Positions 9,643-47,461 of a stretch of DNA of 64,000 nt are shown here, in pieces; position 1 is the stretch's first letter, and each line of letters begins with the position of its first letter. The position numbers and the translations under genes were made by a program. Origin of the DNA: Candidatus Heimdallarchaeota archaeon (GTDB taxonomy: Archaea; Asgardarchaeota; Heimdallarchaeia; Heimdallarchaeales; Heimdallarchaeaceae); the NCBI GenBank assembly GCA_030603365.1, contig JAUVXV010000009.1, positions 1-64,000 of the forward strand. Direction: 5' to 3'. The notes beneath the pieces were generated by a model, which had not been told where the DNA came from, ran no database searches, and saw only the letters and a program-made list of their open reading frames with translations.

Positions 9643-10671
9643 ATGGTTGAATTAGATAGCAGTAGTTATTGTGCCTTTCATTACGAGAATTCTTCTGATG
9701 GTGAGTGCTCAAACTGTGGTTTAAATATATGTAATTTTGATCAGGATTATGATGTACAAGCGAATAGGTTATGCAAGCTCTGTTTCAATATTACAAAAGC
9801 AAAACCAAGAATAAAATATATCCAGATAGGTATTTGGGTAGTTGTTATTGCCTTGGTTGTGATAATCTGGTCAACTGTCGAAAATGGACTCTGGTATGCT
9901 TTACTACCTCTTCTACTAATCTTGCTTGTACCTTATGGGATGAGACCATATATAATGAAATCATACTTTAAAGGACTTGAACCAAAAGAATCGGTTTTAC
10001 CTATTTTGCGTTATTTTGAAGCATCTGGAAATCTTGATCATTATAAACTATTCCTCAAGTTTCTAAAAAAAATGACAGATGAAGATATCAAAGCAATCAA
10101 TGAAAAACTCTATGAATTTCTTGTCCCTGCATTATCTTTCAATTATTCTAAACTCCCCGAAAATTGGCAAGAAAAGATTACATCTCATCTAAGAATAACT
10201 TCAGATGATCTTGTTAATATTCTAACTCAAAAATATAGAAGCGTATTGATTCAAACAGCCGTTCACAGCGCACAATCCAATATTTCTATGTTTATTTTCT
10301 ATCTAAGTGAAACAGCAGATGATGAGAAACTAATTGCAGATTATATTAAAGAAATTACTTCTCCTGAAATTATGAAGCTAGATACAGAAGAAGTTAATGC
10401 GATTTACAAGAAATTACTTGAAGATCTCTATCTTTATGATGAAAAGTTCTACGAGTACTGTGACAATTTGGGACTTAAGAAAGAAAAAGAACTTATATCT
10501 CAGTTAATTGAAAAGTTTGTACCTCCCCCAGTTCCTAAAAATCAACTAGAAGCCGTTATGAGCCCTGAACAATTGGTTGAAAAACGAAAGAAAGAAATTG
10601 ATACTTCTTCACAACCTGGCAAAATTGAAGAATCTGAAATTCCTGAATTAAAGTTTACTGGGGACAAATAG
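9643..10671 (+). CDS. Membrane protein with N-terminal B-box-like zinc finger, 2 TM and helical C-domain
   Basis: CAFH-x7-CSNC-x4-CNFD...LCKLC followed by two hydrophobic segments. Confidence 0.7.
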   Translation: MVELDSSSYCAFHYENSSDGECSNCGLNICNFDQDYDVQANRLCKLCFNITKAKPRIKYIQIGIWVVVIALVVIIWSTVENGLWYALLPLLLILLVPYGMRPYIMKSYFKGLEPKESVLPILRYFEASGNLDHYKLFLKFLKKMTDEDIKAINEKLYEFLVPALSFNYSKLPENWQEKITSHLRITSDDLVNILTQKYRSVLIQTAVHSAQSNISMFIFYLSETADDEKLIADYIKEITSPEIMKLDTEEVNAIYKKLLEDLYLYDEKFYEYCDNLGLKKEKELISQLIEKFVPPPVPKNQLEAVMSPEQLVEKRKKEIDTSSQPGKIEESEIPELKFTGDK

Positions 10672-10744
10672 ATTTTTCCTTATCTTTATTTTCTTTAAGG
10701 TTATTAATCAGTGCAATTAATATATACAATATTTATATCTTGAC

Positions 10745-10823
10745 TGAGAATAACAGATATGATGAAGAATTACAACCTATGAGTCAATGATTTGCCTAGC
10801 TCACGCTGATTATGTTATTCTCA
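10745..10823 (+). ncRNA. Box C/D methylation guide sRNA (predicted target LSU rRNA A2577, E. coli numbering)
   Basis: C box ATGATGA 10759-10765, D' ATGA 10779-10782, C' ATGATT 10787-10792, D box CTGA 10806-10809; 11-bp terminal stem 10745-10755/10813-10823; guide GCCTAGCTCACG complementary to conserved CGUGAGCUGGGU. Confidence 0.8.
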
Positions 10824-10912
10824 TCATCTCATCTACTTTTCAAATAACCCTACAAAAAAAATTTAATAGGTCATAGAATAATTCTCTAATCATAGGTTGT
10901 TAGGGTTCAATC

Positions 10913-12553
10913 ATGACTTACGAGAAAAAACACAATAAATCATCTTTAGGTTGGAAAATATTTGGTATATTTTTATATTTTCTTGCTTTTCTCGTAGGTA
11001 TTGTTAGTATTGTTTACTTGGTATGGTCATTTATTCTAATGATACAAGAATTCTCTACAAATACAGCAGTTGGCAAACTAATACTCTCCTTTATTTTCAA
11101 CCTCCTTTCACTGATAGTAGAAATTATAGGAATCTTCTATACTGTGATGTTGATTAAACACATGGGCTCTACTTGTATGAACCCTCCTTCTATCAAAGGA
11201 AATGACAAGATTGTTCTAACTGAATTTCCAGAAATAAGTTTCATTATACCTATTCGTAATCCTGAACCTTTAATATTAGAGGAGACATTAATGTCTATCA
11301 ACAAACTTGATTATCCAAAAGAGAAAATCAGCGTGTTTCTAGGGGATGATACAGATGATGATCATCCAGATTTTAAGAAAATTAGGGAATTAGCGGAGAA
11401 ATATAAGACTGAATACATATATGACCCATCTAATGTACATTTCAAAGCTGGAATGCTTAATATTATGTTGAAGAAAATCAAATCTGAATACTTCGTTCTC
11501 TTAGATTATGATCACGTTGTACATAATAATCTATTGAATGGTTTCATGAAAGAATTCCAAAAAGACCCTGATTTAGCTTTTGTACAAGCAAAAGTCAGTT
11601 TTCGAAATGTATTTTCTAAATTACAAGTATGGGAATCTGTAATGTATGCTCAATTCTATGAGGTTTTTCAACGATCTAAAACTAAACGTTCAACTGTCTT
11701 GACTAACGGTTCAACTGTGTGTTTTCGTAAAACCTACATTGATGAGGTAGGAGGAATACCCTTTGATACATTCACAGAAGATGTTGATATTTCAGTTAGT
11801 TTACTAGCTCAAGGATATAGAACCGCTTTAATGGATAGTTATGGTAGTTTTGGTTTAATACCTGCAACCTTTTCTCTTCTCTTATCACAGATTCTAAGAT
11901 GGGCTAAAGGAAGTATGCAAGTTCTAAAGAAAAGATGGAAGAATATCTTACGAGCAAAATTACCTTTATCAGATAGAGTAGATTTATTGTTTAGTACTTC
12001 TTTGTTCTTAATTGCTGCTTCTGTTTATCTTAATGTTATATTTTATGTTATAATGTATTTAACAAGAAGTCCAATCATTAGAGTAACAGCAGGAAGCTTT
12101 CCACCACTGCTTATTATGCCAATAGCTTTTGCGTTTTCCTATCAAATTTCTGGGCTGATAGCAGTACTATTTGCACGCAAAAGTGGAATTAAGAACATGA
12201 ACCCATTTGATTTAGTTTATTTCCTTATTCTAGCTTTAGTTCTAAATCCATTTACAGTCTTCGCAGTCTTCAAATCATTATTCACAAGAAAAGCACCAAT
12301 AAGGGGGAAAAATGAATGGAATGAAAAGGTTCCTTATCTCATCCTCTCATTCATTATATCCTTACTTGGTTGTGGTTTAATTGTGATAACTATTTTTGAT
12401 CTAATAACAGCTGGACCATCTGGATCATTTTGGTTAGTTTTAGGCTTGTTGGGATTATCTATGATAGCTACTTTCCCAGTTTGTCTCTTTCTTCACTTTA
12501 CAACTAAACACAACAAACCTTATTTTGTTAAAGGAATAAATGAATATCATTGA
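10913..12553 (+). CDS. Cellulose-synthase-like processive GT2 glycosyltransferase (copy 1)
   Basis: DD, FKAGMLN, DYD, TED, QILRW; 2 N-terminal and about 5 C-terminal TM. Confidence 0.9.
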   Translation: MTYEKKHNKSSLGWKIFGIFLYFLAFLVGIVSIVYLVWSFILMIQEFSTNTAVGKLILSFIFNLLSLIVEIIGIFYTVMLIKHMGSTCMNPPSIKGNDKIVLTEFPEISFIIPIRNPEPLILEETLMSINKLDYPKEKISVFLGDDTDDDHPDFKKIRELAEKYKTEYIYDPSNVHFKAGMLNIMLKKIKSEYFVLLDYDHVVHNNLLNGFMKEFQKDPDLAFVQAKVSFRNVFSKLQVWESVMYAQFYEVFQRSKTKRSTVLTNGSTVCFRKTYIDEVGGIPFDTFTEDVDISVSLLAQGYRTALMDSYGSFGLIPATFSLLLSQILRWAKGSMQVLKKRWKNILRAKLPLSDRVDLLFSTSLFLIAASVYLNVIFYVIMYLTRSPIIRVTAGSFPPLLIMPIAFAFSYQISGLIAVLFARKSGIKNMNPFDLVYFLILALVLNPFTVFAVFKSLFTRKAPIRGKNEWNEKVPYLILSFIISLLGCGLIVITIFDLITAGPSGSFWLVLGLLGLSMIATFPVCLFLHFTTKHNKPYFVKGINEYH

Positions 12554-47386: not shown

Positions 47387-47461
47387 GCCCCGATAGTATA
47401 GCGGCTAGTATTGTGGATTGTGGCTCCATAGAGGCAGGTTCGAATCTTGCTCGGGGCACCA
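47387..47461 (+). tRNA. tRNA-His(GTG), CCA encoded
   Basis: Acceptor GCCCCGA/TCGGGGC, anticodon arm GTGGA-TTGTGGC-TCCAT, T arm GCAGG-TTCGAAT-CTTGC, ends ACCA, followed by a T-tract. Confidence 0.96.

What the first reader, a model, noticed from the sequence alone, without database searches (positions are those of the whole stretch)
10745..10823. Unannotated box C/D guide RNA predicted to methylate the site equivalent to yeast Am2946
Seen: complete C, D', C' and D boxes inside an 11-bp perfect terminal stem, with TATA-like sequence about 25 nt upstream. The D guide GCCUAGCUCACG pairs over 12 nt (two G-U) with the conserved peptidyl-transferase-centre sequence CGUGAGCUGGGU. By the D+5 rule the target is the A at E. 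coli position 2577. Known: this position corresponds to yeast 25S A2946, which is 2'-O-methylated under snR71. Inference: a functional counterpart of a eukaryotic snoRNA in an Asgard archaeon, with a long, snoRNA-like terminal stem.
Basis: partly seen in the sequence, partly recalled or inferred. Interest (0 to 1): 0.8.

Follow-up and report, generated by a model that had tools for sequence, protein, structure and literature searches.

The report
Heimdallarchaeal box C/D methylation guide RNA
This is very probably a real, unannotated box C/D guide RNA of a Heimdall-group Asgard archaeon, predicted to direct ribose methylation of two nucleotides beside the ribosome's catalytic centre; it is a well-known kind of RNA, made unusual only by its long closing stem.

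Summary
Window 10745-10823 (+) holds boxes C, D', C' and D inside a perfect 11-bp stem, with a TATA-like box about 24 nt upstream.

- **D guide.** Its 12 nt pair without a mismatch (two G-U) with the host 23S rRNA. The fifth-nucleotide rule selects the A that aligns with E. coli A2577, which corresponds to yeast Am2946.
- **Conservation.** The gene sits at the same locus in 30 of 31 genomes of one Heimdallarchaeal family. The boxes are nearly invariant, guide substitutions preserve pairing, and the stem covaries.
- **Machinery.** Fibrillarin, Nop5 and L7Ae genes are present.
The D' guide is an eroded A-loop guide for U2552 (yeast Um2921). Two other Asgard families carry the same two-guide layout with full complementarity, and their guide covaries with their rRNA.
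- **Not Asgard-specific.** Guides for A2577 also occur in Caldarchaeales, Wolframiiraptor and Hadarchaeota, and are predicted for Methanopyrus sR56. No descent link to snR71 is shown.

Expression and methylation are untested. Verdict: a new member of a known kind, of moderate interest.

The parts
10717..10726 (+). TATA-like promoter element (TTAATATATA), centred about 24 nt upstream of the RNA's first paired base
   Evidence: Sequence. An A/T-rich TATA-like box sits at about the same distance (roughly -20 to -33 from the stem) in all 29 homologous loci inspected, although the surrounding sequence diverges. The genome is 67% A+T, so this is supportive only.
10745..10755 (+). 5' arm of the 11-bp terminal stem (UGAGAAUAACA)
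   Evidence: Perfect complement of 10813-10823. On an unbiased MAFFT alignment of 19 homologues, 80.7% of cells pair, against 40-61% when the partner is slid. AU to GC double changes occur at two pairs. On the model-fitted alignment of 34 matches, 7 of 11 pairs show compensatory change and 0 of 500 shuffles reach the covariation score.
10756..10758 (+). Linker GAU. G10756 and A10757 form the two-pair canonical stem of the kink-turn with U10811 and U10810. U10758 begins the 3-nt bulge.
   Evidence: The pair A10757:U10810 is A:U in 17 of 17 distinct homologues. The pair 10756:10811 is GC in 11, AU in 2, GU in 1 and unpaired in 3. The kink-turn geometry itself is inferred from established C/D k-turn rules.
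10759..10765 (+). Box C, AUGAUGA
   Evidence: Matches the RUGAUGA consensus. AUGAUG is invariant in the 19 closest homologues. More distant genera have AUGAAGA, AUGACGA or AUGAUAG and keep the first G-A.
10766..10778 (+). D' guide spacer (AGAAUUACAACCU, 13 nt). The 3' part ACAACC(U), together with U10771, pairs with the 23S A loop. The fifth nucleotide upstream of D' (A10774) faces E. coli U2552.
   Evidence: ACAACC is invariant in the 29 clear family-f1 homologues; G044 keeps only CAACC. In the host's own rRNA the best run through position 5 is the A loop, with 7 Watson-Crick pairs plus 1 G-U. That match is not significant on its own: 164 of 400 shuffles did as well. Orthologues in the G004 clade have 10 Watson-Crick pairs plus 1 G-U to the A loop, matched by 4 of 400 shuffles. 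sRNAs of two other Asgard families are perfect A-loop complements that covary with their own rRNA.
10779..10782 (+). Box D', AUGA (variant of CUGA)
   Evidence: UGA is invariant in the 19 closest homologues. The first base is C, giving canonical CUGA, in G001, G003, G006, G019, G041, G042, G044, G045 and G046.
10787..10793 (+). Box C', AUGAUUU (degenerate). It follows a 4-nt loop, GUCA, at 10783-10786.
   Evidence: UGA is invariant. G041, G042, G044, G045 and G046 (genera g10, g12 and g13) have canonical AUGAUGA or GUGAUGA.
10794..10805 (+). D guide, GCCUAGCUCACG (12 nt). U10801, the fifth nucleotide upstream of box D, faces 23S A2577 (E. coli numbering).
   Evidence: It has a unique 12-bp match (two G-U) in the host 16S and 23S. 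This site is the top hit by a wide margin in six genomes with complete rRNAs, scoring 10-11 against at most 8. Mapping to E. coli comes from alignment. The spacer is exactly 12 nt in all homologues. Positions 2-7 and 11 are invariant. Positions 8, 9 and 10 change only A/G, U/C and C/U, and each variant still pairs.
10806..10809 (+). Box D, CUGA
   Evidence: Invariant in the 19 closest homologues and 26 of the 29 clear family-f1 homologues carry CUGA here. Variants are UUGA in G043 and UAGA in G044.
10813..10823 (+). 3' arm of the terminal stem (UGUUAUUCUCA). A10812 is left unpaired between the two stem parts.
   Evidence: As for the 5' arm.
10837..10840 (+). T run (TTTT) 14 nt past the stem; possible archaeal terminator
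   Evidence: Sequence only. Runs of 4-8 T lie within about 35 nt downstream in about a third of the homologues. This is weak evidence in an AT-rich genome.

Best explanation
This is an independently transcribed, dual-guide archaeal box C/D sRNA of about 79 nt.

**Proposed mechanism.**
- Boxes C and D are brought together by a two-pair stem and an 11-bp terminal helix. They fold into a kink-turn, and boxes C' and D' into a k-loop.
- Each motif binds L7Ae.
- A Nop5 dimer carrying two fibrillarins then assembles on the RNA.
- The 12-nt D guide pairs with 23S rRNA CGUGAGCUGGGU, at the base of the helix 90-93 region next to the peptidyl-transferase centre.
- That places the 2'-OH of the A equivalent to E. 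coli A2577 (yeast A2946) in the fibrillarin active site.

**The D' guide.** It descends from a guide for the A-loop nucleotide U2552 (yeast U2921), 25 nt upstream in the same rRNA. In this genome only its box-proximal 7-8 nt still pair. I put D'-directed methylation here at roughly even odds.

**The long stem.** In this 33%-GC organism the A/U-rich stem most likely stabilises the kink-turn and protects the RNA ends.

**Shown versus inferred.**
- Shown here: sequence anatomy, conservation, guide-target complementarity and covariation, and presence of the protein genes.
- Inferred: transcription, RNP assembly and the methylations themselves.
For: **Anatomy and target**
- The box anatomy is exact at the stated coordinates.
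- The D guide has a unique 12-bp match in the host rRNA, which aligns with E. coli A2577.
- This site is the top hit in six genomes with full rRNAs.
- The target is invariant in 27 relatives' 23S sequences.

**Conservation**
- BLAST found homologues in 18 genomes of the genus.
- A covariance model found them in 23 of 24 genus genomes and in the other four genera of the family. Adding the syntenic G044 orthologue gives 30 of 31 genomes including G000.
- The gene always lies between orthologues of the same two proteins, even where those proteins are only about 37-50% identical.
- Guide substitutions at positions 8-10 are all pair-preserving transitions. Position 1 shows all four bases.
- The stem covaries.
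- The D spacer is fixed at 12 nt.

**Machinery and promoter**
- Adjacent fibrillarin and Nop5 genes and an L7Ae gene are present.
- A TATA-like box sits at about the same distance upstream in all loci.

**D' guide**
- The G004 clade has an 11-bp A-loop match, reached by 4 of 400 shuffles. Its two targets lie 25 nt apart.
- Asgard families f10 and f11 carry the same C / A-loop guide / A2577 guide / D layout.
- Their guide has G or A exactly where their own 23S has C2551 or U2551.

**Literature**
- U2552 is a predicted C/D target in five of seven archaea studied.
- Methanopyrus sR56 is predicted to target alignment position A2851. That equals E. coli 2577 by the constant offset of 274 (PMC4644070).
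- Yeast Am2946 is guided by snR71 and Um2921 by snR52 (PMC5199042).
Against: - There is no expression or modification data.
- No Rfam family reaches its gathering score. The best C/D hit is sR11 at 14.8 bits, E 1.6.
- The window's D-guide match is only moderately unlikely by itself (11 of 400 shuffles).
- The D' match in this genome is not significant (164 of 400 shuffles). Its spacer is 13 nt rather than 12.
- Boxes C' (AUGAUUU) and D' (AUGA) are degenerate.
- A stand-alone RlmE-like methyltransferase is encoded (181 bits to TIGR00438, below the 300-bit equivalog cut-off). It could methylate U2552 without any guide.
Confidence: 0.8

Rival explanations
1. This is a single-guide sRNA. The C'/D' half is kept only as the second L7Ae/Nop5 platform that archaeal sRNPs need for symmetry. 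In this lineage the D' spacer no longer directs methylation of U2552. Either U2552 is methylated by the RlmE-like protein, or the spacer has an unidentified target. This rivals only the D' part of the best explanation.
For: - In this genome the A-loop duplex has only 7 Watson-Crick pairs plus 1 G-U, no better than shuffled guides (164 of 400).
- Relatives with U2555 and the same guide have only 6 pairs.
- The spacer is 13-15 nt, off the 12-nt optimum.
- An RlmE-like gene is present.
- The 5' part GAAUUAC is conserved across four genera although it does not pair with the A loop. That suggests another constraint.
- A 7-bp alternative match puts U34 of tRNA-Thr(UGU) at position 5.
Against: - The box-proximal ACAACC seed is invariant in 29 of the 30 f1 copies and pairs with G2549-U2554, with U2552 at position 5.
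- One clade changed position 8 from U to A and then extended complementarity to 11 bp, as expected if A-loop pairing is under selection.
- Outgroup Asgard families have perfect, covarying A-loop guides.
- The tRNA-Thr match leaves the invariant CC unpaired.
- No exact 10-nt complement lies in any stable RNA of the genome.
Confidence: 0.4
2. The RNA acts as a chaperone only. It pairs with nascent 23S rRNA at helices 90-93 to assist folding of the peptidyl-transferase region, and methylation is absent or incidental.
For: - The two complementary sites lie 25 nt apart in one folding domain.
- Double guides that target closely linked positions are a recognised feature of archaeal sRNAs (PMC7994747).
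- A folding role for such guides is my own recollection of the literature.
Against: - The strict 12-nt D spacer and the invariance of guide positions 2-7 around the fifth nucleotide fit the geometry needed for catalysis, not just pairing.
- Fibrillarin is encoded.
- The same nucleotide is methylated at 91-99% in yeast (PMC5199042).
Confidence: 0.08
3. This is a cis-acting kink-turn element in the leader of the downstream glycosyltransferase operon, or in the 3' UTR of the upstream gene. It would bind L7Ae to regulate expression rather than act as a trans-acting guide.
For: - The element has kept its position between the same two genes, on their strand, across five genera.
- L7Ae is reported to bind mRNA k-turns in archaea (PMC5539422, abstract).
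- An 11-nt inverted copy of the D' guide plus box lies at 10890-10900 in the downstream leader.
Against: - A regulatory k-turn would not need a 12-nt spacer whose substitutions all preserve pairing with an invariant rRNA sequence.
- A separate TATA-like box (TTTAATAG) lies between the sRNA and the downstream start codon in most loci.
- The inverted 11-mer is confined to the three or four closest relatives and overlaps a Shine-Dalgarno-like AGGU motif.
- Related sRNAs in families f10 and f11 sit in unrelated contexts.
Confidence: 0.03
4. The element is a chance assembly of short motifs in AT-rich intergenic DNA, or a decaying pseudogene.
For: - The box motifs are short.
- C...D pairs with closing stems of at least 8 bp occur 5-9 times in shuffled genomes.
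- Decayed tandem copies do exist next to the gene in G005 and G013.
Against: - Thirty syntenic copies have near-invariant boxes, while the flanking proteins have diverged to about 37-50% identity.
- The pattern TGA-N8-GCUCACN-CUGA occurs in 27 of 30 family genomes (once in 26, twice in G016, the extra hit lacking extended complementarity). It occurs in 0 of 52 genomes of the other families of the class, and a reversed control gives 2 hits.
Confidence: 0.02

Closest known systems
Archaeal dual-guide box C/D sRNAs that target helices 90-93 of 23S rRNA. Examples from Dennis et al. 2015 (PMC4644070): Methanopyrus kandleri sR56, predicted at alignment position A2851 (E. coli A2577), and the U2826 (E. 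coli U2552) guides such as Sulfolobus acidocaldarius sR7.
   Same: - Same four-box architecture with a 12-nt D spacer and the fifth-nucleotide rule.
- Two guides aimed at neighbouring sites of one rRNA domain.
- Same predicted target nucleotides.
- Same protein partners are encoded.
   Different: - No detectable sequence relationship. No Rfam family reaches its threshold.
- The host is a low-GC Heimdallarchaeon with very few C/D candidates. Only 7 four-box matches were found in the genome.
- The RNA is 79 nt from stem to stem, against the usual 50-70 nt (PMC7994747), because of the 11-bp terminal helix.
- C' and D' are degenerate, and the D' spacer is 13 nt.
The same two-guide sRNA in two other Asgard families (unnamed GTDB families f10 and f11; genomes G087-G091), found here.
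   Same: - Same order of elements: box C, A-loop guide, D', C', A2577 guide, box D.
- Both guides complement the genomes' own 23S.
- The A-loop guide covaries with the rRNA, G with C2551 or A with U2551.
   Different: - Those copies keep full 9-10-bp A-loop complementarity and 12-nt D' spacers.
- Their terminal stems are only 4-5 bp, and their D' boxes lack the UGA core (AGGA, GUAA).
- Their genomic context is unrelated.
- Common descent is likely but not proven.
Yeast snoRNAs snR71 (25S Am2946) and snR52 (25S Um2921), and the eukaryotic box C/D snoRNA class in general.
   Same: - Same two rRNA nucleotides by position. Yeast 2921 and 2946 correspond to E. coli 2552 and 2577, with the same 25-nt spacing (plus established numbering).
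- A terminal stem flanks the C/D kink-turn.
- Guided methylation of U2552 coexists with a protein methyltransferase of the FtsJ family. In yeast that is Spb1, which methylates the adjacent G2922. Here it is the RlmE-like gene.
   Different: - In yeast the two sites are served by two separate snoRNAs. Here one RNA carries both guides.
- There is no sequence or covariance-model similarity to any Rfam snoRNA family at E up to 10.
- The gene was not found in 52 genomes of the other Heimdallarchaeia families.
- Equivalent guides exist in non-Asgard archaea. Shared targets therefore do not argue for orthology.
Unannotated C/D sRNAs with an A2577 D guide in Caldarchaeales/Calditenuaceae, Wolframiiraptor/Nitrososphaeria and Hadarchaeota, found here.
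   Same: - Canonical C, D', C' and D boxes.
- A D guide ending in CAGCUCACN before CUGA, with 9-10 pairs to GUGAGCUGG(G).
   Different: - Their D' guides are different (for example GAUUUGUCUCAG or GAGCUGCAGUAU).
- No perfect long closing stem comparable to the 11-bp helix is evident (Hadarchaeota may have an interrupted one; not scored).
- They come from other phyla, several probably thermophilic.

Membership tests
Archaeal box C/D sRNA | Box C (RUGAUGA) near the 5' end and box D (CUGA) near the 3' end | tested here: met
   AUGAUGA at 10759-10765 and CUGA at 10806-10809. Both are invariant in the 19 closest homologues.
Archaeal box C/D sRNA | Internal D' and C' boxes able to form a k-loop | tested here: met
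   AUGA at 10779-10782 and AUGAUUU at 10787-10793. The UGA cores are invariant. G041, G042, G044, G045 and G046 (genera g10, g12, g13) carry canonical forms of both boxes; G003, G006, G019 and G001 have canonical CUGA only. The boxes are degenerate in this copy.
Archaeal box C/D sRNA | Guide spacers of about 12 nt between C and D' and between C' and D | tested here: met
   The D spacer is exactly 12 nt in every homologue. The D' spacer is 13 nt here and 13-15 nt in relatives, slightly off the optimum.
Archaeal box C/D sRNA | Terminal pairing that juxtaposes boxes C and D into a kink-turn | tested here: met
   A two-pair stem next to the boxes, one pair invariant and one covarying, plus an 11-bp helix with compensatory changes. 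The k-turn fold itself is inferred.
Archaeal box C/D sRNA | A guide complementary over about 9 or more bp to rRNA or tRNA, with the target opposite the fifth nucleotide upstream of D or D' | tested here: met
   The D guide has 12 contiguous pairs (two G-U) with 23S, and position 5 faces the A2577 equivalent. The D' guide has only 7 Watson-Crick pairs plus 1 G-U to the A loop, which is inconclusive in this genome.
Archaeal box C/D sRNA | The host encodes L7Ae, Nop5 and fibrillarin | tested here: met
   PF01269 scores 305 bits at C1:643741-644406. PF01798 scores 226 bits at C1:644622-645299. PF01248 scores 92.7 bits at C1:260590-260859.
Archaeal box C/D sRNA | A stable small RNA is made, binds L7Ae, and the target carries the 2'-O-methyl | not testable with these tools
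Rfam snR71 / eukaryotic snoRNA families, and curated archaeal sR families | A covariance-model match at the family's gathering score | tested here: not met
   cmscan of the whole window at gathering thresholds found only a tRNA. A permissive scan of 10650-10920 at E up to 10 listed eight weak hits. The best C/D hit was sR11 at 14.8 bits against a gathering score of 39, and none was a yeast snR family.
Rfam snR71 / eukaryotic snoRNA families, and curated archaeal sR families | Same methylation target as snR71 (25S A2946) | tested here: met
   The target aligns with E. coli A2577. Yeast Am2946/snR71 and Um2921/snR52 come from PMC5199042. The equivalence 2552=2921, and hence 2577=2946, rests on established numbering and equal spacing. 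The yeast sequence itself was not aligned here.
Rfam snR71 / eukaryotic snoRNA families, and curated archaeal sR families | Descent from a common ancestor with the eukaryotic snoRNA | tested here: inconclusive
   The gene is present in 3 of about 33 Asgard families sampled. It was not found in 52 genomes of the other families of the class. Analogous guides occur in other archaeal phyla. Nothing links it specifically to eukaryotes.

The most novel reading that the evidence does not exclude
The dual guide for U2552 and A2577, shared by at least three Asgard families, is a survivor of the guide-RNA set inherited by the first eukaryotes. Yeast snR52 (Um2921) and snR71 (Am2946) would then be its split descendants. 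The extended terminal helix of the Heimdallarchaeal form would be an early step toward the stem-dependent processing of snoRNAs. A smaller variant of the same idea: in lineages whose D' guide carries U at position 8, the universally conserved A-loop base U2555 changed to A at least twice, restoring a guide-target pair from the rRNA side.
Probability: 0.06. Interest if true: 0.75.

Novelty: new member of a known kind. Interest (0 to 1): 0.4.

Why it matters
- **A concrete example in Asgard archaea.** I found no description of box C/D guide RNAs from Asgard archaea in the open literature I could search. This locus is a well-supported example.
- **A usable model.** It provides a covariance model that recovers the gene in every genus of one Heimdallarchaeal family.
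- **A second target.** It led to a second target, the A loop.
- **Relatives elsewhere.** It led to related sRNAs in two more Asgard families.
- **Testable predictions.** The RNA predicts two specific 2'-O-methyls beside the peptidyl-transferase centre. One is U2552, reported as modified (at U2552 and/or G2553) across archaea and bacteria studied and methylated in yeast. Ribosome structures or RiboMeth-seq of cultured Asgard archaea can check both.
- **A correction.** Sharing a target with a yeast snoRNA is not evidence of a special Asgard-eukaryote link, because the same site is guided in several other archaeal phyla.

Tried and rejected
- **RNA evidence.** The look-up of sequencing runs (kind rna) listed no RNA holder.
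- **Rfam.** There was no match at gathering scores and only noise at E up to 10.
- **Two BLAST hits set aside.** G000:C1:283047-283083 and G007:C23:58070-58097 lack the boxes and are chance matches. The true G007 copy is at C74.
- **Other targets for the D' guide.**
  - No run of 9 or more bp exists in the 16S, 23S or tRNAs of the host.
  - The 40 genomic matches to the 10-nt complement, allowing G-U, are scattered in coding DNA. One is antisense to the 23S upstream region.
  - A weak recurrent site, CGGUUGUC, about 120 nt downstream of A2577 gives 7 pairs in some genera but not here.
  - tRNA-Thr(UGU) U34 gives 7 pairs but leaves the invariant CC unpaired.
- **A class of long-stem C/D RNAs in this genome.** A scan gave 18 candidates against 5-9 in shuffles, and only this one is convincing.
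- **Guide and target covariation at position 8 versus rRNA 2555.** This is suggestive: A2555 is seen only with U8 guides. It rests on two events and is not significant.
- **Polarity of D' guide evolution from flanking-protein trees.** The AAUUAC form sits on several deep branches, but the root is unsure and long branches interfere.
- **Synteny between the f1 locus and the f10/f11 loci.** None was found.
- **Literature on Asgard C/D sRNAs.** Nothing relevant was found.
- **A mislabelled record.** The first E. coli record returned by BLAST was not a genuine 23S. K-12 rrlH was used instead.
Full report
**1. The observation**

- Terminal stem: UGAGAAUAACA at 10745-10755 and UGUUAUUCUCA at 10813-10823, a perfect 11-bp stem.
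- Box C AUGAUGA at 10759-10765.
- A 13-nt D' spacer at 10766-10778.
- Box D' AUGA at 10779-10782.
- A 4-nt loop.
- Box C' AUGAUUU at 10787-10793.
- The 12-nt D guide GCCUAGCUCACG at 10794-10805.
- Box D CUGA at 10806-10809.

TTAATATATA lies at 10717-10726. The element occupies a 241-nt gap between ORF 9643-10671 (no Pfam family) and a family-2 glycosyltransferase gene at 10913-12553, all on the + strand. RNAfold recovers the terminal stem, but the fold energy is unremarkable (z -1.4). That is expected for a protein-scaffolded RNA.

**2. The target**

The host 23S rRNA is split over two contigs that overlap: C8:1-2021 (-) and C14:1-1669 (+).
- CGUGAGCUGGGU occurs in it once.
- The D guide pairs with it over all 12 positions, with two G-U pairs. 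No other site in 16S, 23S or the tRNAs comes close.
- Aligned to E. coli K-12 rrlH, the nucleotide opposite the fifth guide base upstream of box D is A2577.
- Yeast Am2946 is guided by snR71, Um2921 by snR52, and Gm2922 is made by Spb1 (PMC5199042).
- U2552 corresponds to yeast 2921 by established numbering. The spacing is 25 nt in both, so A2577 corresponds to A2946. I did not align yeast rRNA directly.

Taken alone, the complementarity is only moderately improbable: 11 of 400 shuffled guides found an equally good site.

**3. Conservation**

- BLAST found the element in 18 genomes of the genus.
- A covariance model built from these found it in 23 of 24 genomes of the genus and in three further genera.
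- A diverged syntenic copy is present in the fifth genus (G044). In total 30 of 31 genomes of the family carry it. The missing one is 86% complete.
- It always lies between orthologues of the same two genes, even where those proteins share only about 37-50% identity with the window's.
- Record titles of the matching contigs read Candidatus Heimdallarchaeota. The Asgard assignment is therefore right.

The boxes are nearly invariant, and the D spacer is 12 nt everywhere. Along the D guide:
- Positions 2-7 and 11 never change.
- Position 1 shows all four bases.
- Positions 8, 9 and 10 vary only as A/G, U/C and C/U. Each variant still pairs with the rRNA.
- The rRNA target is identical in all 27 relatives whose 23S was found.
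- In six genomes with complete rRNAs, the A2577 site is the best D-guide match by a wide margin.

The terminal stem covaries.
- On the unbiased alignment, 80.7% of cells pair, against 40-61% for slid partners.
- On the model-fitted alignment of 34 matches, 7 of 11 pairs show double changes.
- Two further pairs next to the boxes fit the canonical stem of a kink-turn.
- G044 has a stem of entirely different sequence.

A TATA-like box sits at about the same distance upstream in every locus. A second one lies between the sRNA and the downstream gene in most loci. Fibrillarin, Nop5 and L7Ae genes are present.

**4. The D' guide**

*In the window's genome.* The invariant 3' part, ACAACC, pairs with G2549-U2554 of the A loop and puts U2552 at position 5. 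Here the duplex has 7 Watson-Crick pairs plus one G-U, which shuffled guides match 164 times in 400.

*Within the family.* One clade (G004, G007, G011, G017, G022) carries GCGAACAACCU, with 10 Watson-Crick pairs plus one G-U to the A loop. Only 4 of 400 shuffles match that.

*At phylum level.* A pattern scan then found the A2577 D guide in two other Asgard families, f10 (1 of 1 genome) and f11 (4 of 4).
- These RNAs have the same layout.
- Directly after box C they carry GGCGAACAAC (f11) or GGCGAACAG (f10).
- Their own 23S A loops read GUUGUUCGCC and CUGUUCGCC.
- The guide base therefore changes from A to G exactly where the rRNA changes from U2551 to C2551.
- With their 12-nt spacers, U2552 again falls at position 5.

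The D' guide of this family is thus an A-loop guide by descent.

*In most of the window's family.* The 5' half reads GAAUUAC and does not pair with the A loop. Flanking-protein trees place this form on several deep branches, so it is probably old within the family. Whether the remaining 7-8 pairs suffice is open.
- The 13-nt spacer argues for weak activity.
- So does an encoded RlmE-like methyltransferase.
- The conserved seed argues for retained activity.
- So does the later re-extension of complementarity in one clade.

**5. How special is the target?**

- U2552 is a predicted C/D target in five of seven archaea studied.
- Helices 90-93 are a recognised methylation hotspot (PMC4644070 and PMC7994747).
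- The supplementary table of PMC4644070 lists Methanopyrus kandleri sR56 at alignment position 23S A2851. The paper equates 2880 with E. coli 2606 and 2826 with 2552, so 2851 is E. coli 2577.
- A scan of 185,579 species genomes for a canonical four-box RNA with GCUCACN before CUGA returned 46 loci.
  - These included the Heimdallarchaeal family.
  - Fourteen further archaeal loci came from Caldarchaeales/Calditenuaceae, Wolframiiraptor, Nitrososphaeria and Hadarchaeota, with 9-10 pairs to the same site.
  - Eleven bacterial hits mostly lack extended pairing and look like chance.
- Within the class Heimdallarchaeia, neither the model nor the pattern found the gene in 52 genomes of six other families. 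A reversed control pattern gave 2 hits.

The site is therefore a recurrent archaeal target with a patchy distribution. Sharing it with yeast does not indicate orthology with snR71. No Rfam family matches.

**6. The long stem**

- Related sRNAs in f10 and f11 have 4-5-bp stems.
- The non-Asgard sRNAs show no comparable perfect closing stem.
- The other good C/D candidate in this genome (C1:514275-514322) has none.
- A genome-wide scan found no class of long-stem C/D RNAs.

The helix is thus a conserved peculiarity of this one gene family. At 79 nt, the RNA exceeds the 50-70 nt usually quoted for archaeal sRNAs (PMC7994747). I infer that it compensates for weak A/U-rich pairing in a 33%-GC organism and protects the ends. 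No bulge-helix-bulge motif is evident by eye, and none was searched for.

**7. Verdict**

This is a genuine box C/D guide RNA (confidence about 0.8). Its D guide is predicted to direct Am at the A2577 equivalent. Its D' guide descends from a U2552 guide and is of uncertain activity here.

It is a new member of a known kind. The suggested eukaryote-like significance is not supported beyond a shared target. Expression and methylation remain to be shown.

Noticed in passing
G000:C14:1132 (L006:1132); 23S rRNA, E. coli position 2555: The host 23S has A where the A-loop base U2555 is otherwise conserved (GGGGUUGUACGCCC). The same change is in G016, G020, G023 and G041. Twenty-four other relatives across the phylum have U. 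All five A2555 genomes carry a D' guide with U at position 8, which would pair with it.
   Followed up: partly
G000:C14:1182-1330 (L006): A roughly 150-nt insertion lies in the 23S after E. coli A2600, 23 nt downstream of the predicted methylation site. It is closed by the inverted repeat GGAUUUAAGC/GCUUAAAUUC and has no ORF on the rRNA strand. It is present in G000, G005, G008, G009, G012, G013, G016 and G020. It is absent in G001, G003, G004, G007, G019 and G023. It could be an intron or an expansion segment.
   Followed up: partly
G000:C1:514275-514322 (+), outside the window: This is a second strong box C/D candidate: AUGAUGU, a 12-nt spacer, CUGA, UAA, UUGAUGA, an 11-nt spacer, CUGA. Both guides have 9 contiguous Watson-Crick pairs to 16S rRNA, at positions 1359 and 1432. 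It has no long terminal stem.
   Followed up: no
L069:1339-1421 (-) = G005:C29:25619-25701; L066:1666-1748 (+) = G013:C63:32665-32747: In two relatives a second, decayed copy of the sRNA lies about 80 nt downstream of the intact one. Box D is mutated to CGGA or lost, and the guides are altered. These are tandem duplications in the process of decay.
   Followed up: partly
window 10890-10900: UCAUAGGUUGU, in the leader 13 nt before the glycosyltransferase start codon, is the exact reverse complement of the D' guide end plus box D' (10773-10783). GGUUGU is kept only in G023 and G016, and it overlaps a Shine-Dalgarno-like AGGU. It is probably coincidence.
   Followed up: partly
L179:1041-1131 = G044:C32:33041-33131: The syntenic orthologue in genus g12 has non-canonical boxes (C AUGAUAG, D UAGA) and a terminal stem of completely different, G/C-rich sequence. 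It keeps the guide UCUCAGCUCACA.
   Followed up: partly
G000:C1:651221-651742 (L182:1501-2022): A stand-alone FtsJ/RlmE-like methyltransferase gene lies about 6 kb from the fibrillarin-Nop5 pair. It scores 181 bits to TIGR00438 (rrmJ), below the 300-bit equivalog cut-off. It is a possible protein-only route to Um2552.
   Followed up: partly
G000:C8:1-2021 and C8:10098-11577: The 16S and 23S genes lie about 8 kb apart on the same strand, so they are probably not one operon. The 23S is broken between contigs C8 and C14, which share about 140 nt.
   Followed up: no
L113 (JBHLQZ010000224.1) = G002:C224: One genome that the genome index places in the window's genus is titled Candidatus Thorarchaeota in its public record. 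Its sRNA copy and flanking genes are typical of the Heimdallarchaeal family, so the label is probably wrong.
   Followed up: no
window 47387-47458 (+): A tRNA gene (Rfam RF00005, 55 bits; tRNA-His GUG by ARAGORN). It is the only Rfam match at gathering score in the window.
   Followed up: no
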